Of a DNA stretch of 51,655 nt, positions 6,620 through 48,499 are shown piece after piece. Position 1 is the stretch's first letter. Every line of letters begins with the position of its first letter. The stretch is from a virus (taxonomy: Duplodnaviria; Caudoviricetes): positions 1-51,655 of the IMG/VR virus record IMGVR_UViG_3300030104_001604. One strand, written 5' to 3'. The notes beneath the pieces were generated by a model that was not told the origin of the DNA, made no database searches, and was given only the letters and a program-made list of their open reading frames with translations. The translations under genes were made by a program, and so were the position numbers.

Positions 6620-6801
6620 GACTTATGGCTTTCCTTCTAATAGTAATTGTAGAAGGAGAAGAAATTAATACTAGAGGTATGCACTTTAGAGATGTCAATA
6701 GATGTCGTTACTTTGCAGACCGATTAGAAGATAGAGAATCTAAAGTAACTGGATACTGTAAGCCTGTACTAGTTGCACAGACTACTACCTTTAGGGATTA
6801 A
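6616..6801 (+). CDS. Hypothetical protein (61 aa, Cys pair)
   Basis: ORF translationally coupled to neighbours. Confidence 0.6.
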   Translation: MRLMAFLLIVIVEGEEINTRGMHFRDVNRCRYFADRLEDRESKVTGYCKPVLVAQTTTFRD

Positions 6802-6802
6802 T

Positions 6803-23325: not shown

Positions 23326-24015
23326 TTATGCAGCCTGTCGAACTATTAAGTTCTGGTCTGCTTCCTCTACACCTGGCACTACCTTATACTTCAGTCCTAC
23401 AATGACAGGGCCAGCCTCTACATTGAGAAGATCATCTCGATCTCCATCAATAACTTCCCTACCTAAGAATGTCTTAGGAAAGGGCTTATCTTTAAACACT
23501 GCTGACATAGGTACATCAGTCTTCAATGCTTCCTCAACTTGCTTTTGAAATTTTTTCTTCGGACTATAACTGAACATCAGCTTGTAGTTATCTGGAGTTC
23601 TCGTAAGCCTGTATGCTGCTTTAGTATAGTCATAGAAAAATATATCTGGAAACTCTTGTGGAATTCCGTGACGCTCCCACGGCACATCACTAAGTGTATT
23701 TAGTCTAGCGATAGGTTCAACACCAGTACGCTTACACAATTTATTAAAGTTGAATAGCTCTCTGCGTAGCTGCTCAAGGAATCCTTGCGTATCGTTGTGA
23801 TAGTACATGGTCTTATCCATCCTACCTTGTACTACATTACCCATCGCACCACGCCCAGCACCTACTAAGCACATCTCCTTACACCCTGCAATGTTTCTAG
23901 CTGGACATAGTATGTCATCTGGATACATAGACAGACTACCTATGCGTTTTTTGGGTTTGTCCTTCATAGACTTCTTGATCTTGGTGTTACCACCTGCGGT
24001 ATCTAATAGCTTCAT
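23326..24015 (-). CDS. Gp88-like protein with a Cx7Cx3C motif (possibly radical-SAM-like)
   Basis: N.K..K, CP-x6-CKEMCL..AGRG, RLN.LSD, FYDYTK, FSYS, IDGD..D, VGLK. Confidence 0.65.
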   Translation of the reverse strand: MKLLDTAGGNTKIKKSMKDKPKKRIGSLSMYPDDILCPARNIAGCKEMCLVGAGRGAMGNVVQGRMDKTMYYHNDTQGFLEQLRRELFNFNKLCKRTGVEPIARLNTLSDVPWERHGIPQEFPDIFFYDYTKAAYRLTRTPDNYKLMFSYSPKKKFQKQVEEALKTDVPMSAVFKDKPFPKTFLGREVIDGDRDDLLNVEAGPVIVGLKYKVVPGVEEADQNLIVRQAA

Positions 24016-26864: not shown

Positions 26865-27290
26865 TCAAAGGTTAACCAGTTTTGAGTCGGAACTACCAAG
26901 CCAATAAAGTCTATAAAGATCTTCTTCTTTTTCGTAGGCTTCTTGTTCCCAAGGCAGAGTTAGATAGGAACATTCAGAATAGTCCTTACCTTTCCACATA
27001 TGTTTATAAGGTGAGAGTTCACCCTTTAGGTATTGTTTAGCATGAATGAGTTCATGTGCTAAATTGTGCATCATTTGATCTAGTGTCAAGTCTTTTCGTG
27101 CCAGAGTTATCTCTATAGATTGTTTATCACCCCAACAAGCCCCATAGAGATCTTCAAATTCATTTACTATAGTTATTTCTATATGAACTAAACGTCTAAT
27201 ACGAGGTAAGAATGAATATAAAATATCATTTATATATTTTTCTATTCTTTTCTTTTGGGCTATACGCCCTACAAAGTCTATATAGAACAT
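26865..27290 (-). CDS. HEXXH zinc metallopeptidase-like protein
   Basis: LAHELIHAKQY and PWEQEAY. Confidence 0.75.
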   Translation of the reverse strand: MFYIDFVGRIAQKKRIEKYINDILYSFLPRIRRLVHIEITIVNEFEDLYGACWGDKQSIEITLARKDLTLDQMMHNLAHELIHAKQYLKGELSPYKHMWKGKDYSECSYLTLPWEQEAYEKEEDLYRLYWLGSSDSKLVNL

Positions 27291-27809: not shown

Positions 27810-28017
27810 TACCATTCCTTTTGGCTATAGTCTATCAGAAGATAAAGTAACCTTAGAAGCTGTACCAGAACAACTAGAAGCATTAAATGAGATAAAAGAA
27901 CTTGTACATGAGAAATCTTTAAGTCTTAGGGATGGAGCAACATGGCTACACTATAAGACAGGTAGAAAGTTAAGCCACGTAGGTTTAAAAAAAATAATAG
28001 ACAAAGCCTATGAATGA
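27793..28017 (+). CDS. Small HTH protein (recombinase DNA-binding-domain-like)
   Basis: IPFGY, SLR..A.WL..KTGR.LSH.GL. Confidence 0.55.
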   Translation: MKRRTSTIPFGYSLSEDKVTLEAVPEQLEALNEIKELVHEKSLSLRDGATWLHYKTGRKLSHVGLKKIIDKAYE

Positions 28018-29689
28018 TTGGGAAGAAAACCCCGATGCTTATCAGCGAGATGAGGCTGGAGAATTTATTCTCAAAAAAGATGGAACTCCACGTAAAGTTT
28101 CCGGTAGACCGAAAGGTTCAAAAGGTAGAGGCTATAACTATCATTCCGAAACGAAAGCCAAACTCCAAGCCAGGAGATCTGTACGTAACAAACAAAAGAA
28201 ACTGTCCCAAGTCCGTTCTCAACTTGAAGGCTTAAAGGAATCTACCAAAAAGTCCAAAGAGGCTTTAGAAAAGATTGAAAACCCTAACAAGTCTAAAGTA
28301 ATAGATGAAGGAGATATAGAACAACTTACTCCTAATCTTCAAAAGGCACTCAAAGAACAAGATATAATATTCAAATCCAACGAAGGCCCACAGGCAGAGT
28401 TTCTTGCAGCAGGAGAACTTGACGTACTTTATGGTGGTGCAGCAGGAGGTGGCAAGTCCTTTGCCATGATTGTAGATCCTTTACGCTACTGCCATCGTTC
28501 AGCACACAGAGCGTTAATCCTCAGAAGATCCATGCCAGAACTCAGAGAGCTTATAGATAAATCCAGAGAACTTTATCCTAAAGCTTTTCCGGGCTGTAAG
28601 TTCCGTGAGGTTGAAAAGCTATGGAACTTTCCATCAGGAGCTAAAGTAGAGTTTGGATTCTTGGAGCGTGATGCAGACGTATACCGCTATCAAGGTCAAG
28701 CCTTTAGCTGGATAGGGTTTGACGAGATTACACACCTACCCACAGAGTTTTCTTGGAACTATCTAGCTTCACGACTAAGAACAACTGATTCAGAAATTAT
28801 TCCTTATCTACGTTGTACTGCTAACCCAGGAGGTGTAGGGGCACATTGGGTTAAGAAACGCTATGTTACTCCTCACCCACCTAATGAGTCTTTCAAAGGT
28901 GATGATGGTTTAACAAGAAAGTTTATACCAGCTAGACTAGAAGATAATCCATACTTATCGACTGATGGCAGATACGAACAAATGCTACAGTCTTTGCCTC
29001 CTGTACAACGTAAACAACTCTTGGAAGGTAATTGGGATATTACAGAAGGAGCAGCTTTCGCAGAGTTTGATCCAGACGTACATATTATTACTCCCTTTGA
29101 AGTACCTATACATTGGCAACGTCTAAAAGGAATTGACTATGGATATGCTTCTGAAAGTGCTTGTATATGGGCTACAATAGATGCTAACGATGAAACTTTA
29201 ATAATTTATCGAGAATTATACCGTAAGGGGTTGACAGGAGCTGATTTAGGGACTATACTTACTAACATGGAATTGGAAGATCCTGTATCGGTTTCTGGAG
29301 TATTAGATACAGCAGCTTGGGCTAGAACAGGTACAACAGGCCCAACCGTAGGAGAATCTTTAGTTCGATCAGGACATAAACTACGACCTGCTGATAAAAA
29401 TAGAATACAGGGAAAAATCCAAATTCACGAATACTTGAAAGTGCAACAAAACGGAAGGCCACGATTACAAATCTTTAATACATGCCCTAACCTGATACGT
29501 GAGCTTCAAAGTATTCCTTTAAGTAAAAACAATCCAGAAGACGTAGACACTCATGCGCCTGATCATGCGTATGATGCTTTGCGTTATCTGATCATGTCTA
29601 GACCTAGAATTTCAGATACATATGCACAATTAAGAAATCTACGTTTAGAACAAGCCTACCAACCTTCCGATAGTGAGTTTGGTTATTAA
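28010..29689 (+). CDS. terL: Terminase large subunit with a basic N-terminal extension
   Basis: YGGAAGGGKS, FDE, ANPGG, GIDYG, DHAYDALRY. Confidence 0.92.
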   Translation: MNDWEENPDAYQRDEAGEFILKKDGTPRKVSGRPKGSKGRGYNYHSETKAKLQARRSVRNKQKKLSQVRSQLEGLKESTKKSKEALEKIENPNKSKVIDEGDIEQLTPNLQKALKEQDIIFKSNEGPQAEFLAAGELDVLYGGAAGGGKSFAMIVDPLRYCHRSAHRALILRRSMPELRELIDKSRELYPKAFPGCKFREVEKLWNFPSGAKVEFGFLERDADVYRYQGQAFSWIGFDEITHLPTEFSWNYLASRLRTTDSEIIPYLRCTANPGGVGAHWVKKRYVTPHPPNESFKGDDGLTRKFIPARLEDNPYLSTDGRYEQMLQSLPPVQRKQLLEGNWDITEGAAFAEFDPDVHIITPFEVPIHWQRLKGIDYGYASESACIWATIDANDETLIIYRELYRKGLTGADLGTILTNMELEDPVSVSGVLDTAAWARTGTTGPTVGESLVRSGHKLRPADKNRIQGKIQIHEYLKVQQNGRPRLQIFNTCPNLIRELQSIPLSKNNPEDVDTHAPDHAYDALRYLIMSRPRISDTYAQLRNLRLEQAYQPSDSEFGY

Positions 29690-29713: not shown

Positions 29714-30301
29714 ATGGCAAATCCAGTAGTAAGTATTAGAGATTCAGGTAGAAGCACAGCAAGCATACATGATGTACGTGCTTTATCCGACAACAACTGT
29801 CATTCATGGACATCAGCAACAACAGGCACAATAGCAGTAACAGCAAATGAAACGTATGATGTAACATTTACACAACCTGCTGATACAATTATTCGTAACT
29901 TAATTGCAATACCTGCTGGTAACATTGTTACTGCTGGAGCATCAGGTGATGATGTAGATTTTGATTTAGGTACTTCCGCAGGTGGTGGTCAAATAATTGA
30001 TGAAGAAGCTATTCTTGATGATGGTGGTTCAGCCGTAACATGGACAGCTAATGCACCGTTATATCTTATTCAAGATTCACATGGTCATGGAGCTAATGCT
30101 TTTGTAAGCACTAGTGTTACTGCTGGTGTAGTTGGTGGCCCTGCAACTTCAGAGGCTATTGTAATTGCAGGAACTTTGTATACAGCTTCAGCAAGGACTT
30201 TACATGCACGATTAAAGCCTTTAGCAAATAACTTAACTACAGCAGCTACAACAGTTACATACTTAGTAGAGTTCCTACATCTTGGTGTATTGCCTGATTA
30301 A
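29714..30301 (+). CDS. Probable virion structural protein (beta-rich, decoration-like)
   Basis: T/A/G/V-rich, strong SD aggag; function inferred. Confidence 0.45.
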   Translation: MANPVVSIRDSGRSTASIHDVRALSDNNCHSWTSATTGTIAVTANETYDVTFTQPADTIIRNLIAIPAGNIVTAGASGDDVDFDLGTSAGGGQIIDEEAILDDGGSAVTWTANAPLYLIQDSHGHGANAFVSTSVTAGVVGGPATSEAIVIAGTLYTASARTLHARLKPLANNLTTAATTVTYLVEFLHLGVLPD

Positions 30302-30441: not shown

Positions 30442-30581
30442 AAAAAATTATAGCTTGGTGTATTAAACAATATGCTAACTTAGTAGAAAAACTTGGCATG
30501 GGTGTAGATAGTATTGCTTATGGATTAACAAATCATGCTTTTCGTATGTCTAAAAAAGCCAAGGCGTTAGCTGATGCCTGA
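30438..30581 (+). CDS. Small protein (47 aa), not in ORF track
   Basis: SD agga; overlaps the portal start. Confidence 0.45.
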   Translation: MKKIIAWCIKQYANLVEKLGMGVDSIAYGLTNHAFRMSKKAKALADA

Positions 30582-32757
30582 AGATACGTTTTTAGAAAAC
30601 ACAGCCGATTCTGTTTTTTATGAAGATGTTGAAGGTGAGCATGGTAAAGAACTTAATCTTACATCTCAAATCAAATCTAACATAGTAGGTTTAATAGAAG
30701 ATCGTTATAATACTGCGGTAGATGTTAGAGAAAATGATGAAGGACGATGGATTACTTCTTACCATAATTATCGTGGCTTGTATCCTAAAAACGTAAGATT
30801 TAGAGAATCTGAAAAATCTAGAGTATTTATCAAGGTTACTAAAACTAAAGTACTGGCTGCTTTCGGACAGCTAGTTGATGTTATTTTTGGCACAGGTAAG
30901 TTTCCTATAGGTATAACTCATACTAAAATGCCTGAAGGTGTACAGGAATATGCTCATCTTGACAGAGATAATCCTACTCCTAGTATTGAGTCTACGCCCT
31001 CTCAAGAAAGTGAAGAACAAAAACAAACACCTTTTGATGTAGGTTATGAAGGAGATGGTCGAACACTAGCTCCTGGTGCAACTATGAACAACATAACCTT
31101 TATTGAACAAGAAGGAGAAAAAGCTAATAAACTAGCTCCCGGCCCTTCACCAATACCTGATGTACCAGAAATAAAACCTGCTGAAGTAAAATCTAGACGT
31201 ATGGAAAAGCTAATCCATGATCAAATTGAAGAATCAAATGGGTCTAGTGAAATACGAAATGCTTTGTTTGAAGCTGCATTATTTGGTACAGGTATTGTCA
31301 AAGGCCCATTTAACTTTAATAAAACATTAAATCGTTGGACTCGTGATGAAGATGGTGAACGTACTTACGATCCTTTAGAAGTCAGAGTACCTCGAATAGA
31401 GTTTGTCTCTATATGGGATTTTTTTCCAGATCCGTCAGCTACTACTGTTGACGAATGTGAATACATTGTACATCGTCATAAATTAAACCGTTCTCAATTC
31501 AGAGCTTTAAAGCGTATGCCTTATTTTGATGAAGAGGCAATTCGTGATTGTTTAATGATGGGGCCAAATTACGAAGAAAAGGATTACGAAACAGAACTAA
31601 GAGATGATGCACATACAAGTGAACAAGGTTTAGGTCAGTTTGAGGTATTAGAGTATTGGGGTATCATGGATGCAGAGTATGCTCGTGAAGTTGATATGGA
31701 CTTACCTGATGATGTAGACGAGCTATCTGAAGTGCAGATTAATGCATGGATTTGTAATGGTAAGTTATTACGTGCTGTTATTAATCCGTTCACACCCCAT
31801 CGTATTCCATACCATGCGTTTTCTTACGAGCGTAATCCCTATAGTTTTTTTGGGATTGGTGTGGCAGAGAATATGGACGATTCACAGAAAATTATGAATG
31901 GTCATGCACGAATGGCAATTGATAATTTAGCCCTCTCAGGCTCACTGGTCTTTGATGTGGATGAATCTGCTCTTGTAGGGGGACAGTCTATGGAAATATA
32001 TCCTGGTAAGATATTTCGTAGACAAGCTGGAATGCCCGGAACGGCAATCAATGGCCTCAAGTTTCCTAATACCTCTAATGAAAACATGATGATGTTTGAC
32101 AGGTTTAGACAGCTTGCAGACGAGCAGACAGGTATACCTAGTTATTCACATGGACAAACAGGTGTACAAAGCATGACACGAACAGCTTCAGGGATGTCAA
32201 TGCTACTAGGTGCAGCAAGTCTTAACATTAAAACTGTTGTAAAAAACTTAGATGATTTTCTTTTAAAGCCTTTAGGAGAAGCATACTTTCAATGGAACAT
32301 GCAGTTTCTTGAACAAGACTTAGGTGTAGAAGGAGATTTAGAAGTAAAAGCTACAGGCACAAACAGCTTAATGCAAAAAGAAGTGCGAAGCCAACGGCTG
32401 ACTATGTTCTTACAGACTGTACAGAATCCTGCCATTGCTCCGTTTGTTAAAGTGAACAAGCTAATTAGTGAACTTGCTTATAGTCTTGATTTAGATCCTG
32501 ATGAGATCTTAAATGATCCAGAAGAAGCAGCACTAATGGCTCAGATAATAGGAATGCAAAATGCTGGACAACCAACAGGCCAAGAAGCTGCTCCCCCTAG
32601 TCAACAACCCGGAGCTATGGGAAGCCCTGAAGGAGTACCTCCTACACCTCAAGAACTTGGAGCTACAGGCACTGGTGGGGGCAACATCGGAACAGGAAAT
32701 ATTCCGCAGCCAGGGGAAGGTGAATTTGCTGGTACGCCTAGAGCAGTTGAGGGATAG
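30574..32757 (+). CDS. Portal protein (P22/podovirus-type)
   Basis: SRVF.K.TK.KV, FGTG.VKGP, FFPDP, FFG.G..E, TASG.SM; position after terL. Confidence 0.85.
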   Translation: MPEDTFLENTADSVFYEDVEGEHGKELNLTSQIKSNIVGLIEDRYNTAVDVRENDEGRWITSYHNYRGLYPKNVRFRESEKSRVFIKVTKTKVLAAFGQLVDVIFGTGKFPIGITHTKMPEGVQEYAHLDRDNPTPSIESTPSQESEEQKQTPFDVGYEGDGRTLAPGATMNNITFIEQEGEKANKLAPGPSPIPDVPEIKPAEVKSRRMEKLIHDQIEESNGSSEIRNALFEAALFGTGIVKGPFNFNKTLNRWTRDEDGERTYDPLEVRVPRIEFVSIWDFFPDPSATTVDECEYIVHRHKLNRSQFRALKRMPYFDEEAIRDCLMMGPNYEEKDYETELRDDAHTSEQGLGQFEVLEYWGIMDAEYAREVDMDLPDDVDELSEVQINAWICNGKLLRAVINPFTPHRIPYHAFSYERNPYSFFGIGVAENMDDSQKIMNGHARMAIDNLALSGSLVFDVDESALVGGQSMEIYPGKIFRRQAGMPGTAINGLKFPNTSNENMMMFDRFRQLADEQTGIPSYSHGQTGVQSMTRTASGMSMLLGAASLNIKTVVKNLDDFLLKPLGEAYFQWNMQFLEQDLGVEGDLEVKATGTNSLMQKEVRSQRLTMFLQTVQNPAIAPFVKVNKLISELAYSLDLDPDEILNDPEEAALMAQIIGMQNAGQPTGQEAAPPSQQPGAMGSPEGVPPTPQELGATGTGGGNIGTGNIPQPGEGEFAGTPRAVEG

Positions 32758-32791: not shown

Positions 32792-34738
32792 ATGCATGAG
32801 TCAAAAAAATCTAAAAAAGAAAAAAGTTTAATGGTAGCCATACCTGAGTCTAGCCCTTCTGTTGAAGTAAATATTTATAATGATGGTGAAAAACGTGAAG
32901 GTAAAGCTGATGGTGGTTATTCTATGATGAATCCCCCCAGAGAAAAAGCTGTTTTTGGAAAATTAGCGCAAGCAGGGCTTCAATATGCAGGTGAAACAGT
33001 AGCCCCTAAAGCAATGAAAAAACTTTCAAAAACTCGTGTACCTAAAGAAATAACAGAAGAAATGGATGAGCTTTCTTATACATTAGATGAGCAAAAAGAT
33101 TTGTTAGATAAATATCCTGAAACTAAAGAAAGGTTTATTAATAAAATCGCAACTTTAGAAAATACAGCACGTAACATTGGTAGAGGAGGAGGTGGCCCTT
33201 CTGATACTGTTAAAAATAAATCATTAAAAATAATGCAAAGTCTTTTGCTTCCTAAAACTGGTAATCAAGATTTAGTTGAAAAAGGTATAAAAGCACAACG
33301 TACTACGTTTGATGAAAAATTTGATACAGGTACAGATACATTTTTAGCTGGTTTAGGTTTAGGCGTATTATATAATTACTTTGATGATAGTGAAGTAAAA
33401 GAATTAAAAAATTTACAAAGTAAAGAAACTGATATGTTGTTAAATACAATTGCTGAATTACAAAATGAAGTTTGGTTAAGTCAAAATACAAAACCACCTA
33501 CAAAAAAACAAGCAAGTTCTTTTGAAAAAGCTTTTAGTACTGCATGGAAAGCTAATGAAAAAACTTTTATGTTTGAAGGCAAAGAATATACTACTCAACT
33601 TGCAAGAACACAAAAATTTGAAGGTGGCCCTAAAAGTACTTTTGAAGGTCAAGGCAGTCCAGCTACTCCAGAAGCTTTAAAACAACGTGATGCTCGTGAA
33701 GCTGCTGTAGTAAAAGAAATACAACGTACAGGTGAAGATGATGAAGTTGTGTTATCTAAAGAAACATTAGGTAAATTAGCTGATATTGAAGAAGGAAAAA
33801 TGCTTATAGCCGAAGGTACAAAATTAAAAGATGAAGCAAGAAATAACGAAGCAAGGGCTTATGCAGAAAATGTTAGAAAACAAGGACAAATGATTTTAGA
33901 AGGAATTTTAAATTATACAAGAGATCAAAACTCATTAGGTGGGATGATTGATGATATTCAAAGTCAAGCAGCATCAGCAGCTACATCAAACTCAAAAAAA
34001 CCAAATATTATTACTGCTGCTCCTGATTTAAAAACTGTAGCAGCTTTAGATTATGCTACTACAACTGAAGGACAAATAGAATTAGATAAACAAGCTTTAG
34101 ATCCAAATAGGCAAATGGCACAAGAAGGCGGCATGCCTATGCCTCCTGAATTAATGCAACAGCCTATGCCTACAGAAGAACCTCCTGTCGATACTTATCC
34201 TAATATACCTCCAGAAGAAATGGCAGAAGTAGAAGCTTCACAACTTCCAGATGATGAAATGGAAGATGGTTATTTAGATTTCATAGTAAGTGAATCTTTA
34301 TCAGGACAAGAACAACAATATTTAATGGAGAGCCTAGAAGCTGATCCACAACTAAGCAGTATTATTGATAAATTAGTATTAACTGCTTCAGAATTTACTG
34401 GTCAAGGGGAAGTAGACGGCCCTGGAACTGGTGTCTCAGATTCGATACCTGCAAGGTTATCGGACGGTGAATTTGTTTTCACCAGAAAAGCAACTGACCA
34501 ATTAGGTGCTGACAATCTGCAAACAATGATGGATGACGCAGAACGTGCATATGATGGTGGGTTGCAAAAATATGCACTTGGTGGTGCTGTAGATGATACC
34601 GTATTGGGTGGTGCTGTAAAAGACACTACTCCGTTAATGGATGAAAAAGTTGACATGTACGGTACAAATAGACAGCAAGATGAAATGCGTAAGCAAATGA
34701 TGTACGCAAATCGTATGCCAAGTATTATAGGAACGTAA
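32792..34738 (+). CDS. 648-aa head-region protein with repeated GG motifs and a GPGTG.SDSIPA.LSDGEFV domain (candidate maturation factor/protease)
   Basis: Motif at 34418-34495; located between portal and scaffold. Confidence 0.55.
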   Translation: MHESKKSKKEKSLMVAIPESSPSVEVNIYNDGEKREGKADGGYSMMNPPREKAVFGKLAQAGLQYAGETVAPKAMKKLSKTRVPKEITEEMDELSYTLDEQKDLLDKYPETKERFINKIATLENTARNIGRGGGGPSDTVKNKSLKIMQSLLLPKTGNQDLVEKGIKAQRTTFDEKFDTGTDTFLAGLGLGVLYNYFDDSEVKELKNLQSKETDMLLNTIAELQNEVWLSQNTKPPTKKQASSFEKAFSTAWKANEKTFMFEGKEYTTQLARTQKFEGGPKSTFEGQGSPATPEALKQRDAREAAVVKEIQRTGEDDEVVLSKETLGKLADIEEGKMLIAEGTKLKDEARNNEARAYAENVRKQGQMILEGILNYTRDQNSLGGMIDDIQSQAASAATSNSKKPNIITAAPDLKTVAALDYATTTEGQIELDKQALDPNRQMAQEGGMPMPPELMQQPMPTEEPPVDTYPNIPPEEMAEVEASQLPDDEMEDGYLDFIVSESLSGQEQQYLMESLEADPQLSSIIDKLVLTASEFTGQGEVDGPGTGVSDSIPARLSDGEFVFTRKATDQLGADNLQTMMDDAERAYDGGLQKYALGGAVDDTVLGGAVKDTTPLMDEKVDMYGTNRQQDEMRKQMMYANRMPSIIGT

Positions 34739-35002
34739 TAAGGCTACCTGATTTATCAGCCCCTTATTAAAATATAACCCCAAGGCTACCTTGTAGTATA
34801 AGCCCCTTAATTTTTAAGGCTACCTTACAACGACAAGCCCCAACGGAGTAATGATGATGGAAGCAGAAAACATAGTAGAAGAACCGCAAGCAAATCCGTA
34901 TAACGCTAAAAAAGATTGGGCAACCCCCATTCAAAGTAATACAGAGGATGCTAATGGACTTTTTTTTGAACACTCTCAGGCCACCTCAGACGAAGCCCCT
35001 GA
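34736..35002 (+). promoter_or_regulatory. Array of four related RNA hairpins around the scaffold start
   Basis: AGG-CYAC-CT..AG-CC-CC at 34740, 34782, 34816 and 34976. Confidence 0.7.
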
Positions 35003-35690
35003 AGAAACAGAAAAACCAAAACAAAAAAGAGCCAACTATAAAAAAAGATACGATGATTTAAAACGTCATCACGATAGTAAAATTGCTGAGTTTAAACAAC
35101 GTGAGCAAGAGCTGTTGGCTACAAATCAGCCAACTTATCAAGCTCCAAGATCTCCAGAAGAACTTGAGGAGTTTAAACAGCAGTATCCAGATTTGTATGA
35201 TACTGTTGAAACAATTGCACATTCTAGAAGTTCAGAGCAAGTAGAAGCACTTCAGAATCAAGTATCGGCTTTGCAAAAACGTGAGCAAGAAATTGTACAA
35301 CGTGAAGCTATATCAGAATTGCAAAAACGACATCCTGACTTTGAAGAACTACGTAGCTCAGAAGAGTTTCACGAGTGGGCAAAACTTCAACCAGAAGATA
35401 TACAAGATTGGATATATGCAAATCCAGATAATGCTGGATTAGCTAGTAGAGCTATTGATCTTTATAAAATGGAAAACGGTCTTCAAATTAATGTTCCGTC
35501 TAAATCATCTAAGCGTCCAGCTAAACAAGCATCTGCAGCAGATATGGTGTCCACTAAAACGACAACTGTTGATGCAGCACAACCTGCTAAAATTTGGACG
35601 CAGAGGGAAATCGCCTCAATGTCTATGGCTGAATATGATAAATATGAACAAGAAATTGATCAGGCTATTCAGGAAGGCAGAGTGCGATAA
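34851..35690 (+). CDS. Capsid scaffolding protein
   Basis: YKKRYDDLK coiled coil, HPDF, C-terminal I..MS..EY......I..A..EGR; directly before the capsid gene. Confidence 0.8.
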   Translation: MMMEAENIVEEPQANPYNAKKDWATPIQSNTEDANGLFFEHSQATSDEAPEETEKPKQKRANYKKRYDDLKRHHDSKIAEFKQREQELLATNQPTYQAPRSPEELEEFKQQYPDLYDTVETIAHSRSSEQVEALQNQVSALQKREQEIVQREAISELQKRHPDFEELRSSEEFHEWAKLQPEDIQDWIYANPDNAGLASRAIDLYKMENGLQINVPSKSSKRPAKQASAADMVSTKTTTVDAAQPAKIWTQREIASMSMAEYDKYEQEIDQAIQEGRVR

Positions 35691-35721: not shown

Positions 35722-36711
35722 ATGGCTTATAACCAATCAGATCAATATTTTGAACCAAGTACGGATACGAATGCCAACTTTGCGAATTCAGTATCTACTC
35801 AGGCTAATTCATACTTCCTACCTGCTATTTATAGCAAAAAGGTGCTTAACTTTTTTAGGAAAGCATCGGTAGCTGAAGCTATTACCAATACAGACTATGC
35901 TGGAGAGATCACGGCTTACGGAGATTCCGTCAAGGTAATCAAAGAGCCTGAAATCACAGTATACCAGTATGAAAGAGGAGCAGATGTAACGGCAACTAAA
36001 CTAACAGATGCAGAAGTTAATTTGGTTGTTGACACAGCAAACGCTTTTAAGTTCATCGTAGATGACATTGAAACTAAGATGTCACACGTAAACTTTAAAG
36101 AAGTAGCGTCTTCTTCAGCAGCTTACGCATTGCGTGACGCTTATGATGAAGGTGTTATTGCTACTATGTTTGCAGGTGTATCAGCATCTAGCCCTAATCA
36201 TATTCTTGGTTCTGATAACGCAACTGACCTAGCGGCTGGTACTTTTGATGGTACTGGTAACTTAGATATCGGTTTTGCTTCTGGCGAACACGACCCTATT
36301 GACGTGTTGTCACATATGGCACGTTTGTTGGATGAGCAGAATGTACCTGAAGAGGGACGATGGTTCTTAGCTAATCCTGAGTTTTATGAGCAGCTAGTAC
36401 AAAGTTCTTCTAAGCTACTTTCGGTAGACTATAACGCTGGTCAAGGTTCTATTCGTAACGGTTTAGTATCGTCTGGAAAGCTACGTGGTTTCGACATGTA
36501 CAAGACTAACAATATTGCATCTACCTCCAATGCGGCTGGTAAGTGTATTGCTGGTCACATGTCTTCAACCTGTACAGCACAGACTATTACTAGTACTGAA
36601 GTAATTCGTGACCCTGATAGCTTTGGTGACATCGTGCGTGGTTTGCACGTTTATGGAGCTAAAGTAATGCGTGGCGAAGCTTTGGTATCTGCCTTCTACG
36701 GTATAGACTAA
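35722..36711 (+). CDS. Major capsid protein
   Basis: FLP.IYSKK...FFRK, ITNTDY.GEI, GD.V, FGDIVRGL.VYG.KV; highly biased codons. Confidence 0.9.
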   Translation: MAYNQSDQYFEPSTDTNANFANSVSTQANSYFLPAIYSKKVLNFFRKASVAEAITNTDYAGEITAYGDSVKVIKEPEITVYQYERGADVTATKLTDAEVNLVVDTANAFKFIVDDIETKMSHVNFKEVASSSAAYALRDAYDEGVIATMFAGVSASSPNHILGSDNATDLAAGTFDGTGNLDIGFASGEHDPIDVLSHMARLLDEQNVPEEGRWFLANPEFYEQLVQSSSKLLSVDYNAGQGSIRNGLVSSGKLRGFDMYKTNNIASTSNAAGKCIAGHMSSTCTAQTITSTEVIRDPDSFGDIVRGLHVYGAKVMRGEALVSAFYGID

Positions 36712-36764: not shown

Positions 36765-36926
36765 ATGCCTGGAAATCAAATTGGAAGCGATGATAATCCA
36801 ATGATGTTTAGAAAAACACTAGTGAGTAAAGAATCTCGTTTTCGTAAAGGCTTTGATAAAAATAGATATCAAGCTAATTATGATCGTATATTTAAAAAAG
36901 GAGGTAATCGTGCCAGACAAAAATAA
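36765..36926 (+). CDS. Small protein (53 aa), not in ORF track
   Basis: SD agga; ...Y.ANYDRIF motif. Confidence 0.6.
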   Translation: MPGNQIGSDDNPMMFRKTLVSKESRFRKGFDKNRYQANYDRIFKKGGNRARQK

Positions 36927-37068
36927 AAAGAGAGATATGTATATGGGTGGAGGATACTCTCGATCTATGATGAATAAAGGTGGTTATGCTTCTATTAAAG
37001 ATATGGCTTTAGCTTGTGAGAAAAAAGCAGGTGGTGTAAATACTAAAAGTAAACCTACTGAATCCTAA
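36910..37068 (+). CDS. 52-aa protein with two R-x5-GG motifs (GTG start)
   Basis: SD aggaggt; RDMYMGGG and RSMMNKGG. Confidence 0.65.
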   Translation: MPDKNKKRDMYMGGGYSRSMMNKGGYASIKDMALACEKKAGGVNTKSKPTES

Positions 37069-37835
37069 TGGCAACGTATCTTAATTTAACAAATGAACTA
37101 CTAAGAGAATTTAACGAGGTTGTATTAACTTCTTCTGATTTTAGTTCTGCCATAGGTATTCAACAACATGCTAAAGATGCAATCAATAGAGCATACTTAG
37201 ATATTGTTAATGAAGAACCATCTTGGCCTTTTTTAGCTACGGCTGAAAGTGGTGCAACTGATCCAATGTACGGTAATGTATATATTGAAACTACTGCTAA
37301 TACACGTTGGTATGAATTAAAACCAGCAAGTTCTAGCATAACAACTGATTATGGTTATGTAGATTGGTCTAATTTTCTTGTAACTACAGTAGGTGTATCA
37401 GGCGAATCTGCACCTTTTACAGCAGCTAATTTAAGATTTATTACAACAGAAGAATGGAAAGACTATTACAGACTTTCTGAAAATAAAGATGATGCTGGTG
37501 ATGCTAATGGTGGAGAACCAAAAAGAGTTATAAGAAGTCCTGATGCACGTAAGTTTGGATTAAGTCCTATACCAGATAAAGTGTACCGCATTTGGTTTTA
37601 TGCGTATGATTTACCTACAGAGCTTGATGCTCATGGAGATACTATTGTATTTCCTGATGTTTATAAACCTGTATTACTAGCAAGAGCTAGGTATTTTCTA
37701 TGTCAATTTAAAGAAAATATGCAAGCGGCTGCTTTTGCTTTAGAGGATTATAAAAAAGGTATTAAGTATATGCGTTCTGCTTTAATGACTCCAACACCTT
37801 ACTATATGAAAGATGATAGAGTAGGTTTTGCTTAA
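37068..37835 (+). CDS. Head-tail adaptor / tail tubular protein A
   Basis: YL.L.N..L...NE, WPF, P.PDK.Y; position. Confidence 0.7.
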   Translation: MATYLNLTNELLREFNEVVLTSSDFSSAIGIQQHAKDAINRAYLDIVNEEPSWPFLATAESGATDPMYGNVYIETTANTRWYELKPASSSITTDYGYVDWSNFLVTTVGVSGESAPFTAANLRFITTEEWKDYYRLSENKDDAGDANGGEPKRVIRSPDARKFGLSPIPDKVYRIWFYAYDLPTELDAHGDTIVFPDVYKPVLLARARYFLCQFKENMQAAAFALEDYKKGIKYMRSALMTPTPYYMKDDRVGFA

Positions 37836-45711: not shown

Positions 45712-45986
45712 TGGATACTACAAGATTGGATAGAATCGAAGAAAAAATTGATAAGCTTAATGAAGCTGCTTTAGCTGTTGTAAGAATTGAAGAAAGATTA
45801 ATTGCATCAACTAAAAGAGTAGAAAGATTAGAGTATAGAGCTGATGAGCAAGAAGATGATTTAAGTTTATTAGAAAGACAAGTTGCTAACAACACTAATG
45901 CTTTAAAGACTTCAGAAAGGTTTATGTGGATTTTAATAACTGTTTGTGCTACGGCATTAATATATACATTTCAAGGTAATTCATAA
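45711..45986 (+). CDS. Coiled-coil protein with a C-terminal TM helix (XhlA/holin-like)
   Basis: RL.RIE.KID.L heptads, terminal TM. Confidence 0.55.
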   Translation: MDTTRLDRIEEKIDKLNEAALAVVRIEERLIASTKRVERLEYRADEQEDDLSLLERQVANNTNALKTSERFMWILITVCATALIYTFQGNS

Positions 45987-48499
45987 TGGCTAAAAAAAGA
46001 AAAAACCGTAATAATAAATCAGTTAAAAAGTCTTTAGCACGTAAACGTGCTGCTGTTGGTGGCATAAGTGTTGGGGGTATTGGCAACTATCAAAATATTA
46101 CAAGTACTCCTGAACAACTAGCTAAACAACAAGAAAGACTAGCAGAGTTACAAAAACAAATAGCTGCTGAAACAGAGGGACAAAAGCGTTTTTACCAAGG
46201 TGGGGGTGATCCTGGTGACAACCCTAACCGACCTCCTCCTTCTAATGGACAAACAGCTACTCCTCAACAACAAGCAAACCGTAGAGATGAATTACAAACG
46301 TATCGTGCTGATGTATCTAACTTAGGAACTTTAGAAGGACAAGATAGATTCTATGCTCAAAATGTTTCTAGACTAACAGAAATGTCTAAAGGTACGTTTG
46401 GGCCAAAAGCACAAATGACGGCAGCACAATTAAATATTCCAGAAGGTACAGAAACTACAGATATTCAAAAACTTGAAGGGGACTATGAAGCTAGTTTAGC
46501 AAGGGATGCTATAGGAAATCCTATTAATCCTAATGTTGGAAAATACTTTCAAGGCACAGTTACTGGAACTCCTCAAGGTTTAAGAGATCCAGCAAGTTTA
46601 AATGTTTCACGTATGCCCGGTGCTGTTGGCACTGATCCTACAACTATTCCAACAGCAGACTTTGCTACACAAGCTGCACCTACTAGACTTGCTGATCCTG
46701 AAGAAATTCGTACAACACAAGATACAGTAGCTGCCGAAAGAGATGCAGCACAAGAAGAAGCTGCAAGAGCAGAAGCTAAAGCTTTAAGAAGTGATGCACA
46801 AGTACAAGATGTTACGTTTAGAAGTACTGCTGCTGTATCGCCTACTGTTGAAGCTGAAGCAGCTACACGAGCTGAAATAACAGGCACTAAAGCAGATGAT
46901 AGAGCTGCAGCACAAATTGTAGATACGTTTGGTTTTGGTTCTACAAGAAAACAAATAATAGATTCTTTAAAGGCTTCAACAACTAATCCAGCAGCTACTA
47001 GTTTAGCACAAAATTCTAATCTATCTCAACAAGCTGCTTCAACAATAGTAACTAATCCAGGAGCTTTAGATGTAACACAACCAGCTTTGGTAGCAGCAGT
47101 AGCTGAATTACCTGAAGAAGCGTTAGTGTCTGCACAAATGGACAAGCTCTTAGAAGACTTAGAAGACAATGAAGTTCCTACGTGGGCTAGACCAGCAGTA
47201 GATGCTGTTAATTCTATGATGGTTCAAAGAGGCTTACAAGCTTCTACAGTAGGTAGAGATGCTTTGTTTAACTCGATTATTCAAAGTGCGTTTCCTATTG
47301 CACAGGCAAATGCACAGGCTTTACAAACACGAGCAACACAAAATCTTTCTAATCAACAACAAGCCTTAATACAAGAGAATCAGATTGCTGCTGACTTTTT
47401 ATCCAAGAACGCTGCATTTCAACAACAGATGGAACTAGCTAATCTTAACAATGATCAGCAAATGCGTTTAGCTAATTTGTCTGCTAGAAATCAAACAGCT
47501 TCAGAACAAATGACTGCTGATCAACAAACAGAACTAGCTAACTTAAACGCAAGACTACAGACTAACTTACTACAAGGTAAGATAGCGCAACAGTTAGGTG
47601 TGGCTCAGTTAAGTGTAGATCAACAACGAGCTATACAGAATGCTAGTATGACAGCTAATATGGATCTGACTCAATTTAATGCTGAACAACAAGTTGAATT
47701 AACAAACAGTAAATTTATGCAGTCTATGACAATGGCAGACTTTAATGCTGAACAACAAACAGTTATGCAAGAAGCTACAGCACTAGCAAGTCTTGATATG
47801 GCTGCTGTAGATCAACGAACTAAAATAGCTGCACAACAAGCCCAATCTTTTTTACAGCTAGATATGGCTAATATTAGTAATGAACAACAGGCACAAATAC
47901 TTAAATCACAACAACAACAACAACAAAGATTAAGTAATCAATCATTTGAAAATGCTAGACAACAATTCAATGCTACGTCAGAAAATCAATTGAATCAGTT
48001 TTTTACAGGACTTCAAAGTCAAATGAGTATGCAAAATGCACAGCAACATAATGCTATGCGTCAGTTTAACAGCAACCAAGGATTAAAAGCTGATCAAATT
48101 AACAGAGCTAATCTTCTTCAAATGGAACAATTTAATGCTCAAATAGAATTTCAATCTGATCAATGGAATGCAGCTAACGCCCAAGCTGTTGAACAATCAA
48201 ATGTAGAGTGGCGTAGAAAAGCCAATACAATTGATACAGCAGCCGAAAACCAAACTAATCAAATTAATACTCAAAATGCATTTAATCTACAGAGTTCTGC
48301 TTTATCACAAGTATGGCAACAGTTAAGAGACTCTGCAACTTTTGCAGTTCAAATGTCTACTAATGATAGAGACAGAGCATCACGAATGATTGAAAATGCT
48401 TTAGCAAATACATCGTTAATGAATGATGATCACGATCCTAGTGATGTTGCTAGTAGTTTATATAGTTTAATTAATAAAATTAATGGCACAAAATTATAG
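45986..48499 (+). CDS. Q/A/N-rich internal virion protein
   Basis: P.WA..A...V...M..RGL; long Q/N coiled repeats; N-terminal GG motifs. Confidence 0.6.
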   Translation: MAKKRKNRNNKSVKKSLARKRAAVGGISVGGIGNYQNITSTPEQLAKQQERLAELQKQIAAETEGQKRFYQGGGDPGDNPNRPPPSNGQTATPQQQANRRDELQTYRADVSNLGTLEGQDRFYAQNVSRLTEMSKGTFGPKAQMTAAQLNIPEGTETTDIQKLEGDYEASLARDAIGNPINPNVGKYFQGTVTGTPQGLRDPASLNVSRMPGAVGTDPTTIPTADFATQAAPTRLADPEEIRTTQDTVAAERDAAQEEAARAEAKALRSDAQVQDVTFRSTAAVSPTVEAEAATRAEITGTKADDRAAAQIVDTFGFGSTRKQIIDSLKASTTNPAATSLAQNSNLSQQAASTIVTNPGALDVTQPALVAAVAELPEEALVSAQMDKLLEDLEDNEVPTWARPAVDAVNSMMVQRGLQASTVGRDALFNSIIQSAFPIAQANAQALQTRATQNLSNQQQALIQENQIAADFLSKNAAFQQQMELANLNNDQQMRLANLSARNQTASEQMTADQQTELANLNARLQTNLLQGKIAQQLGVAQLSVDQQRAIQNASMTANMDLTQFNAEQQVELTNSKFMQSMTMADFNAEQQTVMQEATALASLDMAAVDQRTKIAAQQAQSFLQLDMANISNEQQAQILKSQQQQQQRLSNQSFENARQQFNATSENQLNQFFTGLQSQMSMQNAQQHNAMRQFNSNQGLKADQINRANLLQMEQFNAQIEFQSDQWNAANAQAVEQSNVEWRRKANTIDTAAENQTNQINTQNAFNLQSSALSQVWQQLRDSATFAVQMSTNDRDRASRMIENALANTSLMNDDHDPSDVASSLYSLINKINGTKL

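What the first reader, a model, noticed from the sequence alone, without database searches (positions are those of the whole stretch)
32792..34738. Distributed R-x5-GG motif plus a lambda-gpH-like domain: candidate virion processing or cargo-sorting system
Seen: this protein is divided into blocks by REGKADGG (~32894), REKAVFGK, RTQKFEGG (~33605), RDQNSLGG (~33920), RQMAQEGG (~34109) and the variants AERAYDGG and LQKYALGG. The same spacing recurs in other late proteins: RKKKDKGG and RHTFVAGG (variants SLFLNKGG, YVGKAEGG) in the last ~370 aa of 1692..6116; RDMYMGGG and RSMMNKGG in the 52-aa 36910 protein; RDDYKKGG at the N-terminus of 8326; RKRAAVGG and QKRFYQGG at the N-terminus of 45986. The protein also has GPGTGVSDSIPARLSDGEFVFTRKATDQLGADNL (from 34418). 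From memory, this aligns with the [FY]ATGG-flanked C-terminal segment of lambda tape-measure gpH (GEFVFTKEATSRIGVGNL), a region processed during assembly. Here it sits in a short-tailed phage, in the portal-scaffold slot usually held by the prohead protease. Inference: the domain cleaves or binds GG tags in cis and trans, releasing or loading capsid cargo. Caveat: the pattern is low-information and also matches once each in RNR (RALMTAGG), SSB (RKVAKKGG) and TerL (RCTANPGG), so the case rests on clustering.
Basis: partly seen in the sequence, partly recalled or inferred. Interest (0 to 1): 0.88.

Follow-up and report, generated by a model that had tools for sequence, protein, structure and literature searches.

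The report
Tape-measure-like head protein with GG motif
A marine short-tailed phage encodes, next to its portal gene, a long helical protein that carries a piece otherwise typical of tail tape-measure proteins and shares a short "R-x5-GG" signal with the phage's other internal proteins, which points to a common, still unknown packaging or trimming step.

Summary
ORF 32792..34738 (648 aa) lies between the portal and scaffold genes of an HTVC103P/HMO-2011-type marine podophage. R-x5-GG occurs 5 times against 0.13 expected (0 of 20,000 shuffles reach it). In 116 representative homologues the variable N-terminal parts hold 159 sites against 9.4 expected, and only at this spacing. The motif recurs in unrelated proteins: small basic proteins between capsid and adaptor genes (31 of 56 loci), the N-terminus of the 837-aa internal protein (30 of 39 distinct N-termini; 5 of 5 complete relatives) and the C-terminal part of the 1474-aa protein (5 of 5).

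The lambda gpH likeness is real. The module matches tape-measure proteins in 759 phage records and falls in the unresolved part of the cleaved fragment gpHC. Seven of seven sampled tape measures have [FY]AxGG just upstream of it.

I found no protease fold, no catalytic residues conserved across the superfamily, and no evidence that the module binds GG tags.

Best reading: a tape-measure-like internal (ejection) protein, with the GG motif as a shared recognition or trimming signal of packaged proteins. Cleavages mapped beside GG in T5 pb2 and P22 gp7 are suggestive precedents. Nothing here shows cleavage or virion location.

The parts
32792..34738 (+). Gene X: 648-aa portal-adjacent protein. 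It has a hypervariable helical N-terminal part and a conserved C-terminal region of about 200 aa.
   Evidence: ORF. 83 homologues, and 570 of 595 IMG/VR candidate stretches confirmed. Alignment A1. AF2.
32894..32917 (+). Motif site 1, REGKADGG (residues 35-42), in a segment predicted disordered.
   Evidence: The same site is present in close homologues.
33170..33193 (+). Motif site 2, RNIGRGGG (residues 127-134), at the end of a helix.
33605..33628 (+). Motif site 3, RTQKFEGG (residues 272-279), in a disordered linker.
33920..33943 (+). Motif site 4, RDQNSLGG (residues 377-384).
34109..34132 (+). Motif site 5, RQMAQEGG (residues 440-447). This is the boundary site that opens the conserved C-terminal region (R...QEGG-M.MPPE). 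G446 and G447 are at least 90% conserved.
   Evidence: In 65 of the 92 representatives that carry a motif, the last site ends 3-27 residues before the DTY anchor.
34154..34381 (+). Conserved acidic helical region (PVDTYPNIPPEEMAEVEASQLPD..., residues about 455-530), specific to the family.
   Evidence: pLDDT is up to 94 for residues about 495-535.
34382..34600 (+). Tape-measure-like module (residues about 531-603): GPGTGVSDSIPARLSDGEFVFT strand followed by the helix KATDQLGADNLQTMMDDAERAY.
   Evidence: PHROG tape-measure families, E down to 7.5e-9. PDB sequences of Douge, 8rk3 and lambda tape measures. 759 phage records. HMM versus shuffles.
34535..34615 (+). Downstream GG sites AERAYDGG, LQKYALGG and DDTVLGG, which match the second [FY]AxGG of tape-measure cassettes.
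36853..37068 (+). Small basic ORF (71 aa, or 52 aa from 36910) between the capsid and adaptor genes, with RDMYMGGG (nt 36931-36954) and RSMMNKGG (nt 36961-36984).
   Evidence: 2 observed against 0.026 expected. Analogous motif-rich small ORFs occur in 31 of 56 related loci.
45986..48499 (+). 837-aa internal virion protein candidate. It has a basic N-terminal leader ending in RKRAAVGG (nt 46040-46063) and QKRFYQGG (nt 46181-46204).
   Evidence: The N-terminal motif is present in 5 of 5 complete relatives and in 30 of 39 distinct N-termini.
1692..6116 (+). 1474-aa virion protein with RKKKDKGG (nt 5073-5096) and RHTFVAGG (nt 5247-5270) in its C-terminal part.
   Evidence: Homologues in 5 of 5 complete relatives carry 1-4 sites in their C-terminal half, 4 of 5 in the form R..[FL]..GG.
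8326..8640 (+). 104-aa protein (phrog_7595) with RDDYKKGG at residues 3-10 (nt 8332-8355).
   Evidence: Only 1 of the 4 relatives that have a homologue shows the same site (REEYKKGG).
30574..32757 (+). Portal protein (SU10 type), the upstream neighbour.
   Evidence: PF23899, E = 1.5e-26. 60% identity to the HTVC115P portal.
34851..35690 (+). 279-aa protein in the scaffold position (phrog_13678), the downstream neighbour.
   Evidence: The order portal, X, this gene, capsid is kept in HTVC103P, HTVC115P, HMO-2011 and CRP-345.

Best explanation
**What it is.** Gene X encodes a tape-measure-like internal protein of a short-tailed phage. It is a long, mostly helical, length-variable protein. I infer that it is packaged in the head near the portal and leaves with or ahead of the DNA, like the ejection or cargo proteins of P22, T7 and crAss001.

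**The C-terminal module.** Its conserved C-terminal region carries the same GG-flanked module that lies near the C-terminus of tape-measure proteins. In lambda this module is part of the cleaved fragment gpHC.

**The motif.** R-x2-[K/Y/F]-x2-G-G is a short linear signal. This phage group places it in flexible linkers of X, at the N-terminus or C-terminal part of two other large internal proteins, and in small basic proteins encoded beside the capsid gene.

**Most likely mechanism (inferred).** One common factor recognises these sites during head assembly. This could be a conserved head component that recruits the proteins, or a host peptidase that trims them next to the GG. Host-dependent cuts of this kind are mapped in P22 gp7 (host OpdA) and T5 pb2.

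**My odds**
| Claim | Probability |
|---|---|
| The motif is functional | 0.85 |
| X is a virion-internal or ejected protein | 0.7 |
| The sites are cleaved | 0.3 |
| The sites act as docking or recruitment signals without cleavage | 0.35 |
| The module itself is the protease or receptor | 0.07 or less |

**Shown:** the motif statistics, the homology and the synteny.
**Inferred:** virion location, recognition and cleavage.
For: **Motif enrichment and specificity**
- 5 observed against 0.13 expected in X.
- 107 against 7.0 in the 80 IMG/VR homologues.
- 159 against 9.4 in the variable parts of 116 representatives. Other R-to-GG spacings give 8-24 there. 92 of 116 carry at least one site.

**Unrelated carriers**
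- Small ORFs without a match to any window protein: 55 against 7.0. They are mostly basic proteins of 40-100 aa after the capsid gene.
- In the small ORFs, spacing 5 gives 53 matches against 3-19 for other spacings.
- Such an ORF lies between capsid and adaptor genes in 31 of 56 loci, and in 27 of the 29 loci where that gap is at least 430 nt.
- The N-terminus of the 837-aa protein carries the motif in 5 of 5 complete relatives and in 30 of 39 distinct N-termini. BLAST alignments to those relatives start only at query residues 201-453.
- The 1474-aa protein's homologues carry it in 5 of 5 relatives.
- Codons of the motif vary, so it is not a DNA repeat.

**Module homology**
- PHROG tape-measure families; the PDB sequences of the Douge, 8rk3 and lambda tape measures; 759 phage records, nearly all annotated as tape measure.
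- The module HMM scores 16-21 bits on lambda gpH, HMO-2011 gp49 and CRP-345 gp62. The best of 1000 shuffles scores 6.7.
- 7 of 7 sampled tape measures have [FY/R]AxGG 3-8 residues upstream of the module.

**Architecture**
- Helices and disordered linkers, with the module strand disordered in the monomer.

**Synteny**
- The order portal, X, scaffold, capsid holds in four cultured relatives. The module sits at the N-terminus in HMO-2011 and CRP-345.

**Precedents from papers (passages read)**
- Lambda gpH is cut in the Gly-rich region into gpH* and gpHC; the site and the enzyme are unknown (PMC12617516).
- T5 pb2 is cut after R1127 (PMC10038345). In the sequence this reads PR|AEGGMMYP, and it is the best match to the motif matrix in the whole of pb2.
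- The P22 gp7 leader is removed by host OpdA, giving a mature N-terminus KGGKG (PMC8402733).
- crAss001 cargo protein C1 has one domain on the portal wing and another segment in the tail (PMC10172136).
Against: - There is no direct evidence that X or any motif carrier is in the virion. No proteomic data for this phage group were seen, and the HMO-2011 paper is not held.
- No cleavage has been observed here.
- The T5 and P22 sites have a different spacing from the motif: R at -3 in T5, and the cut one residue before KGG in P22. The T5 match rests mostly on the GG itself. Without the GG columns it is not the top score, and pb2 has only 5 GG sites.
- The module HMM does not detect T5 pb2 or crAss001 gp45 above noise. 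hhalign against crAss C1 gives Prob 0.3%, and PF25725 does not match X.
- About half of the related loci lack the small GG protein.
- 24 of 116 X representatives have no exact R.{5}GG.
- HMO-2011 itself has only looser forms of the motif (MAKGG, RKMQTGG).
- Part of the recurrence in the 837-aa and 1474-aa families may be inherited rather than independently maintained. The basic leader MSKKR.NRN.KKVLKAL is recognisably conserved.
Confidence: 0.5

Rival explanations
1. One reading: the C-terminal module is itself a peptidase or receptor that cuts or binds the GG sites in cis and in trans, and so sorts capsid cargo.
For: - Module and GG sites co-occur in one protein, and in tape measures the GG site sits 3-8 residues upstream of the module in 7 of 7 sampled.
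- Lambda gpH is cut close upstream of the module by an unknown enzyme (PMC12617516, passages read).
- In T5 the region after the cut carries a 'metallopeptidase motif' with reported muralytic activity (PMC10038345, passage read).
- Within the X family S549, D550, S557 and E560 are invariant.
Against: - No protease family matches.
- The module is a strand of about 25 residues plus a helix, predicted disordered. There is no structural match.
- SDS is not kept in lambda or in HMO-2011/CRP-345.
- T5 pb2 is not detectably homologous to the module.
- HMO-2011 has the module but no exact motif in its internal proteins.
Confidence: 0.07
2. The motif has no partner. It is a structural punctuation mark, a helix-capping or hinge element with R, an aromatic or Lys, and GG on one face. 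It lets long helical proteins fold back on themselves when packed and straighten when they pass through the portal and tail channel.
For: - Sites fall at helix ends and in low-confidence linkers.
- The carriers are long helical or unstructured proteins. Tape measures, which also travel through a narrow channel, have the related [FY]AxGG.
- The i, i+3, i+6/7 spacing fits one face of a helix or of a polyproline-II stretch. This is my inference.
Against: - A hinge would not need a fixed Arg six residues upstream, yet 159 of 417 GG dipeptides have one.
- It would not be expected to be kept at the extreme N-terminus of the 837-aa protein behind a basic leader.
- It does not explain small proteins made of little else.
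Confidence: 0.2
3. The motif-bearing small basic proteins and leaders bind packaged DNA (charge neutralisation or condensation, like RGG or YGG low-complexity motifs). X only shares the motif by descent or by composition.
For: The small proteins and the 837-aa leader are strongly basic and rich in K, R, M, G and Y.
Against: In X the motif is embedded in acidic context (E at -5 in 28% and at -1 in 47% of sites, followed by PPE). The enrichment exceeds what composition predicts in every group.
Confidence: 0.1

Closest known systems
C-terminal cassette of tail tape-measure proteins (lambda gpH residues about 730-785, within fragment gpHC; mycobacteriophage Douge gp16; the tape measure of PDB 8rk3)
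   Same: The module G-x-G-x-x-[SD]-D-x-I-P-A-x-L-S-x-G-E-F-V plus helix is homologous. It is flanked by [FY]AxGG-type sites. The host protein is long, helical and variable in length. In virion structures the module is unresolved; only lambda 818-849 and Douge 1658-1699 are seen (PMC10721106, PMC12617516, PMC13033339, passages read).
   Different: This gene sits between portal and scaffold in a podophage genome with SU10-type portal and adaptor genes. I found no tail-tube or chaperone genes. The protein cannot measure a long tail. The flanking motif has Arg at -6, whereas tape measures have a basic residue at -4.
Ejection (E) proteins of P22, in particular gp7 with its host-cleaved leader
   Same: A podophage internal protein made with an N-terminal leader that is removed next to a GG pair (SYPE|KGGKGG) by a host peptidase (PMC8402733, passages read). 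According to that paper's model, the scaffold recruits E proteins into procapsids.
   Different: There is no sequence homology. The spacing of the cut relative to GG differs. In P22 the leader is dispensable (60% burst). P22 shows one site in gp7, not a motif shared by several proteins.
crAss001 cargo protein C1 (gp45, PF25725 crAss_CARG1)
   Same: An internal protein with one compact domain on the portal wing and an N-terminal part threaded into the tail (PMC10172136, passages read). It is dotted with [FY]xxGG sites: IFDTGG, FSAYGG, KAFGG, NAFGG, MFAYGG. Its core PNLVEQGEVVY resembles IPARLSDGEFVF by eye. The ESM Atlas ranks this family 2nd and 3rd (score 0.79).
   Different: Homology is not demonstrated: there is no Pfam match, hhalign gives Prob 0.3% and E = 0.2, and the HMM score is below shuffles. 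The gene position also differs (after the tail genes).
T5 tape measure pb2 and its cleaved C-terminal fragment
   Same: Cleavage mapped after R1127 (PMC10038345), which lies two residues before the GG in PR|AEGGMMYP. This resembles the family's boundary site [K]-Q-E-G-G-S-M-M-V-P-P. The C-terminal fragment stays in the particle.
   Different: There is no detectable homology of the fragment to the module. The Arg spacing differs. This is a single site.
T4 and phiKZ capsid-targeting sequences with prohead-protease processing
   Same: A short shared signal on several internal proteins that are packaged and later ejected. This comparison is from recall; no paper was read for it.
   Different: Those systems depend on a phage prohead protease and on cuts at L/I-x-E or S/A/G-x-E sites. 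No prohead protease gene was found here.

Membership tests
Tape-measure protein (as a protein class) | Homology to conserved tape-measure segments | tested here: met
   PHROG tape-measure families 25241, 3547, 6090, 17300 and 5448, E from 7.5e-9 to 3.5e-6, over residues about 521-619 only. PDB tape-measure sequences. 759 phage records.
Tape-measure protein (as a protein class) | Encoded in a long-tail module (after the tail tube and the G/GT chaperones) and sets tail length | tested here: not met
   The gene lies between portal and scaffold. The neighbours are SU10-type portal and adaptor genes and a nozzle-like protein. The cultured relatives are short-tailed (PMC8528129 and bioRxiv 10.1101/2019.12.14.876532, passages read).
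Tape-measure protein (as a protein class) | C-terminal proteolytic processing during assembly (shown for lambda and T5 only) | not testable with these tools
   Needs virion mass spectrometry.
Prohead (capsid maturation) protease | Recognisable protease fold or family and catalytic residues | tested here: not met
   No Pfam family at E up to 0.1 for the whole protein or up to 1 for residues 501-648. AF2 gives a helical and disordered model. Foldseek against PDB gives no match with E up to 0.001.
crAss_CARG1 (PF25725), portal-wing-binding domain of crassvirus cargo protein 1 | Match to the family model | tested here: not met
   PF25725 matches crAss001 gp45 at 2.3e-66 but matches none of X, HMO-2011 gp49, CRP-345 gp62 or HTVC115P gp72 at E up to 1. 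hhalign gives Prob 0.3%.
crAss_CARG1 (PF25725), portal-wing-binding domain of crassvirus cargo protein 1 | Binds the portal wing inside the capsid | not testable with these tools
   Needs a virion structure or a binding assay.
MuF / SPP1 gp7-type portal-adjacent minor head protein | Match to the Phage_Mu_F family | tested here: not met
   No such Pfam hit. Only the position next to the portal gene is shared.
Double-glycine leader peptides (bacteriocin type) | Leader of the form LS..EL..I.GG and a C39 peptidase or ABC exporter | tested here: not met
   The leaders here are basic (MSKKR.NRN.KKVLKALK.KR...GG). No C39 peptidase domain was found in any window ORF scanned. The consensus leader form is recalled.

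The most novel reading that the evidence does not exclude
Tailed phages share an undescribed basic-aromatic-x-x-GG signal that marks the proteins which must travel through the portal and tail channel: tape measures in long-tailed phages, and internal or ejection proteins in short-tailed ones. The signal would be the recognition site for the long-sought processing step that turns lambda gpH into gpH* and gpHC and T5 pb2 into pb2* and pb2C, carried out by a conserved host peptidase or by the GG-flanked module itself. In the HTVC103P/HMO-2011 group the same signal would have spread to a whole set of head-internal proteins, giving a protease-gene-free cargo-sorting or maturation system.
Probability: 0.15. 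Interest if true: 0.85.

Novelty: new variant of a known kind. Interest (0 to 1): 0.62.

Why it matters
HTVC103P- and HMO-2011-type phages are among the most abundant virus groups in ocean viromes (bioRxiv 10.1101/2019.12.14.876532, abstract and passages read). Their portal-adjacent gene has only been annotated as hypothetical.

This analysis gives that gene a testable identity: a tape-measure-like internal protein. It also defines a short, statistically solid motif that links it to at least three other protein families of the same virions.

The motif and module tie a podophage protein to the one part of lambda gpH whose structure, cleavage site and protease are still unknown. PMC12617516 states that both the site and the enzyme are unknown. 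The motif therefore offers concrete candidate sites to test in lambda: KFHFATGG at 730-737 and RGYATGG at 776-782.

If the sites prove to be recognition or trimming signals, they would explain how phages without a prohead protease mark proteins for packaging and ejection.

Tried and rejected
**Leads that gave nothing**
- **Portal binding of the conserved C-terminal region.** Complex prediction with portal alignment A2 and X residues 455-648 returned 'no answer' (score 0.00, controls not run). This is evidence neither for nor against binding.
- **Homology to crAss001 cargo protein C1.** The ESM Atlas gave a weak lead (0.79). PF25725 does not match. hhalign of the module against 12 crass C1 sequences finds the register I saw by eye but with Prob 0.3% and E = 0.2. 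The HMM score is below shuffles. I reject it as a demonstrated relationship and keep it as a lead.
- **A protein search spent on C1 diversity.** The 120 proteins listed were all 98-100% identical to the query, so they were useless for a profile.
- **Homology of T5 pb2C to the module** (KATPNDQL versus KATDQL, by eye). Not above noise.
- **A phage-encoded protease.** No protease domain was found in the late or early ORFs scanned. The exception is a 141-aa HExxH, SprT-like protein at 26865..27290 (E = 0.0041, below the Pfam cut-off). It has no homologue in 0 of 5 complete relatives or in HTVC115P, so it cannot be the shared factor.
- **Adenovirus-protease-type consensus (M/L/I)xGG-x.** This consensus is recalled. 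The P4 position here is mostly A, Q, N or Y, so I reject it.
- **Ubiquitin-like LRGG and bacteriocin double-glycine leaders.** The spacing and context do not fit (recalled consensus).
- **A DNA-level repeat or recombination site.** Rejected, because the codons vary.
- **Fold searches.** Foldseek against PDB on the C-terminal model gave no match. I did not run the other libraries, because the module is disordered in the model.
- **Literature.** Searching for the motif strings GEFV, GEFVF, FATGG, YATGG, SDSIPA and 'ATGG motif' gave only unrelated papers among the 15 listed of 637. A search on ejection-protein leaders and Gly-Gly gave P22 only. I therefore found no description of the motif, within these searches and without access to supplementary files. 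The HMO-2011 genome paper, which may hold virion proteomics, is not held.

**Rows dropped before counts**
- One search used the 116 of 147 representatives that have a DTY.N anchor.
- One search excluded 6 loci truncated at the 5' end and 13 duplicate N-termini out of 58.
- One search used the 56 distinct loci that hold both the capsid and the adaptor gene.
- Alignment A3 left out the last three listed representatives (P0221-P0223) to fit the 150-sequence limit.


Full report
**1. What is there**

The window is a whole phage genome. It is 51,655 bases with a 100-nt terminal repeat (99 of 100 identical), so the unit length is 51,555 bases.

The late genes on the + strand run in this order:
- TerS, then TerL (28010..29689)
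- a 195-aa protein
- an SU10-type portal (30574..32757)
- the 648-aa protein X (32792..34738)
- a 279-aa protein in the scaffold position (phrog_13678)
- the major capsid protein (35722..36711)
- two small ORFs
- an SU10-type adaptor (37068..37835)
- a nozzle-like protein
- fibres
- large proteins without family assignment (837, 444, 187, 937 and 1474 aa)
- an M15 endolysin

The closest cultured relatives are the pelagiphages HTVC103P, HTVC104P and HTVC115P (portal 60% identical), followed by HMO-2011 and the roseophages CRP-345 and CRP-603 (about 50%). These are short-tailed phages and among the most abundant in ocean viromes (bioRxiv 10.1101/2019.12.14.876532 and PMC8528129, passages read).

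**2. The observation**

- In X the pattern R.{5}GG occurs 5 times against 0.13 expected from composition. None of 20,000 shuffles reaches 5.
- In the window as a whole the spacing is specific. Late proteins have 12 R.{5}GG, against 0-6 for every other spacing from 1 to 12.
- Outside X and the 71-aa ORF 36853..37068 (2 sites against 0.026 expected), the other hits in this single genome are not significant. The other late proteins hold 5 against about 2.5, and the early proteins 3 against 1.0.

**3. Related genomes decide it**

*The X family.* X has 83 homologues in the word-indexed protein search. 570 of 595 IMG/VR candidate stretches are confirmed relatives, of which 80 were kept. The exhaustive representative search finds 3752 clusters at E up to 1e-3, 911 at 1e-10 and 157 at 1e-30.

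Alignment A1 shows a hypervariable N-terminal part. It is not alignable between subgroups and varies by hundreds of residues. It is followed by a conserved region of about 200 residues that starts at R...QEGG-M.MPPE.

*Motif counts in X.*
- In the 80 IMG/VR loci the X homologues hold 107 R.{5}GG against 7.0 expected.
- Portal (2 against 13.3), scaffold (0 against 0.7), capsid (2 against 5.0), adaptor (0 against 1.8) and nozzle (5 against 9.4) do not show enrichment.
- TerL has one conserved site, RCTANPGG, in 32 of 37. That is ordinary positional conservation.
- In the variable parts of 116 representatives (clusters at 50% identity or less; 31 of 147 lacked the anchor and were left out) there are 159 sites against 9.4 expected. 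Other spacings give 8-24. 92 of 116 proteins carry at least one site. 159 of 417 GG dipeptides have Arg at -6, and 217 have Arg or Lys.
- The consensus is R-[E/D]-x-[K/Y/F]-[Q/A/N]-E-G-G-S-[M/L]-[M/L]-[V/M]-P-P-E.

*Unrelated carriers.*
- ORFs in these loci with no BLAST match to the window hold 55 sites against 7.0 expected.
- The 39 such ORFs that carry a site are mostly basic, Met/Gly/Lys/Tyr-rich proteins of 40-100 aa right after the capsid gene. Examples are RSMYMGGG, RMMYGHGG, RREYSKGG and RSKKAMGG. In four loci there is also a 130-180-aa protein between TerL and portal that begins with RTKYSNGG.
- In the small ORFs, spacing 5 gives 53 matches against 3-19 elsewhere.
- A motif-bearing ORF lies between capsid and adaptor genes in 31 of 56 distinct loci, and in 27 of the 29 loci where that gap is at least 430 nt.
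- In the AT-rich pelagiphage HTVC115P the same kind of protein uses Lys: gp73 has KKKMMGGG and KKKMMHGG.

*Large internal proteins.*
- The homologue of the 837-aa protein carries the motif at residues 10-35 in 5 of 5 complete relatives, although BLAST alignments start only at query residues 201-453.
- It carries the motif in 30 of 39 distinct complete N-termini from 58 loci, behind a basic leader.
- The homologues of the 1474-aa protein carry 1-4 sites in their C-terminal half in 5 of 5 relatives.
- The 104-aa protein's N-terminal site recurs in only 1 of the 4 relatives that have a homologue.
- The motif's codons vary, so it is a protein feature and not a DNA repeat.

**4. The tape-measure module**

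*Homology.*
- Residues about 521-619 match five PHROG tape-measure families (E from 7.5e-9 to 3.5e-6).
- They also match the tape-measure sequences of three solved virions: Douge gp16 (two copies, E = 2.3e-7), 8rk3 and lambda.
Pairwise E is 2e-6.
- A 79-residue query finds 759 phage records, almost all annotated as tape measure: Mycobacterium 224, Gordonia 147, Pseudomonas 134, Vibrio 75.

*Same module in the HMO-2011 branch.* An HMM of the module from the X family scores 20.6, 16.1 and 16.9 bits on HMO-2011 gp49, CRP-345 gp62 and lambda gpH. The best of 1000 shuffles scores 6.7. In HMO-2011 and CRP-345 the protein in the same slot carries the module at its N-terminus.

*GG flanks in tape measures.* In 7 of 7 sampled tape measures an [FY/R]AxGG site lies 3-8 residues upstream of G-P-G-x-x-x-[SD]-D-x-I-P-A-x-L-S-x-G-E. 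In 4 of 7 a second [FYH]AxGG lies 35-60 residues downstream. The GG site and the module form one cassette, of which X has a local variant.

*Structure is unknown.* No solved virion resolves this cassette. Lambda shows only residues 818-849 and Douge only 1658-1699 (PMC10721106, PMC12617516, PMC13033339, passages read).

*Lambda processing.* According to PMC12617516, gpH is cut in the Gly-rich region into gpH* (about 1-710) and gpHC. The site and the enzyme are unknown, and the N-terminal part of gpHC, which holds the cassette, is disordered.

**5. Structure and enzyme searches**

- AlphaFold2 of full-length X (43 sequences) gives mean pLDDT 57: helices and disordered linkers, with the motif sites at helix ends or in linkers.
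- The C-terminal region with 148 sequences gives pLDDT 65. There is a confident helical hairpin (residues about 495-535), a disordered module strand and a following helix.
- Foldseek against PDB finds nothing.
- No protease family matches X.
- Within the X family S549, D550, S557 and E560 are invariant. Across the superfamily only G-E is general.
- No protease was found among the ORFs scanned. The one exception is a small HExxH (SprT-like, sub-threshold) protein at 26865..27290, which is absent from 5 of 5 complete relatives and from HTVC115P.

The claim that the module cuts or binds GG tags therefore has no support. I cannot exclude it.

**6. How it most likely works**

*Shown:*
- the motif is a real, spacing-specific, protein-level signal;
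- it is shared by unrelated proteins encoded in the head and internal-protein regions;
- X carries a tape-measure cassette;
- the portal-X-scaffold order is conserved.

*Inferred:* X and the other carriers are packaged in the head and ejected, and one common factor recognises the motif.

*Two versions are about equally likely.*
- Docking or recruitment into the procapsid. PMC8402733's model has the P22 scaffold recruiting the E proteins. crAss001 C1 sits on the portal wing with its N-terminal part in the tail (PMC10172136).
- Trimming next to the GG by a host peptidase.

*Precedents for trimming.*
- The P22 gp7 leader is removed by host OpdA at SYPE|KGGKGG (PMC8402733).
- T5 pb2 is cut after R1127, which reads PR|AEGGMMYP (PMC10038345).
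- That T5 site is the best match to the motif matrix in the 1219-residue protein, but this is mainly because of the GG itself. pb2 has five GG sites, and without the GG columns the site is not top. I treat these as suggestive only.

**7. Comparison and novelty**

X works like an ejection or cargo protein and contains a tape-measure cassette. It is not a tape measure in the functional sense (no long tail), not a prohead protease, not a MuF/gp7-type protein and not a demonstrable member of crAss_CARG1.

I found no description of the motif or of the cassette in the literature searches I could run.

The kind of thing is known: a shared signal on packaged proteins, and a processed tape-measure end. 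This form, its spread over several protein families in an abundant marine phage group, and its link to the unresolved gpH cleavage region appear to be new.

**8. Verdict**

- Observation: confirmed.
- Interpretation: partly supported.
- Interest: 0.62.
- Novelty: new variant of a known kind.

Noticed in passing
window 1..100 and 51556..51655; ORFs 50424..51653 and 3..1682: The window ends in a 100-nt direct repeat of its start (99 of 100 identical), so the unit genome is 51,555 bp. Read across the junction, the two open-ended ORFs form one 937-aa protein whose C-terminal part has a lysozyme motif (phrog_2083 'internal virion lysozyme motif'; PF00959, E = 0.0012). It has no [RK].{5}GG site.
   Followed up: partly
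window 26865..27290 (-): The first gene of the leftward operon encodes a 141-aa protein with an HELIH (HExxH) motif, a sub-threshold SprT-like match (E = 0.0041) and matches to phrog_16532 and phrog_10499, both of unknown function. It is a possible small metallopeptidase. No homologue was found in 5 complete relatives or in HTVC115P.
   Followed up: partly
window 36765..36926 (+): A 53-aa ORF directly after the capsid gene is conserved in 25 of the related loci by BLAST. It overlaps the start of the GG-rich 71-aa ORF in another frame. It contains RIFKKGG (spacing 4). Function unknown.
   Followed up: no
window 28010..29689 (+), residue 268: The TerL site RCTANPGG is positionally conserved in 32 of 37 related TerL proteins, in all 5 complete relatives and in HTVC115P (HMO-2011 has RATTNPGG). 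It is an ordinary conserved site that happens to fit the pattern, not part of the motif system.
   Followed up: yes
L086:16988-19516 (crAss001 gp45, cargo protein C1): The crassvirus cargo protein is dotted with [FY]xxGG sites. In 12 crass-like phages its portal-bound domain ends in [FY]AxGG-type sites (FAYGG, YAHGG, FATGG ...). Together with a core PNLVEEGEV[IV][FY], this looks like the tape-measure cassette, but no statistical test supports homology.
   Followed up: partly
L018, L029, L035, L082 (between TerL and portal): Four related loci carry a 130-184-aa Ser/Asn/Gly/Lys-rich protein between TerL and portal. It starts with M..(K)RTKYSNGG. The window has an unrelated 195-aa protein (29714..30301) in that position.
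   Followed up: no
window 6773..7192 (+): A complete NifU/IscU-type Fe-S scaffold gene (PF01592, E = 7e-54) sits among late and lysis genes, as another first-stage note also says.
   Followed up: no
L085 (HTVC115P) gp46, locus 23511..23960: HTVC115P annotates a 'toxin-activating lysine-acyltransferase' among its internal-protein genes, next to the homologues of the large virion proteins. This may point to acylation of an ejected protein.
   Followed up: no
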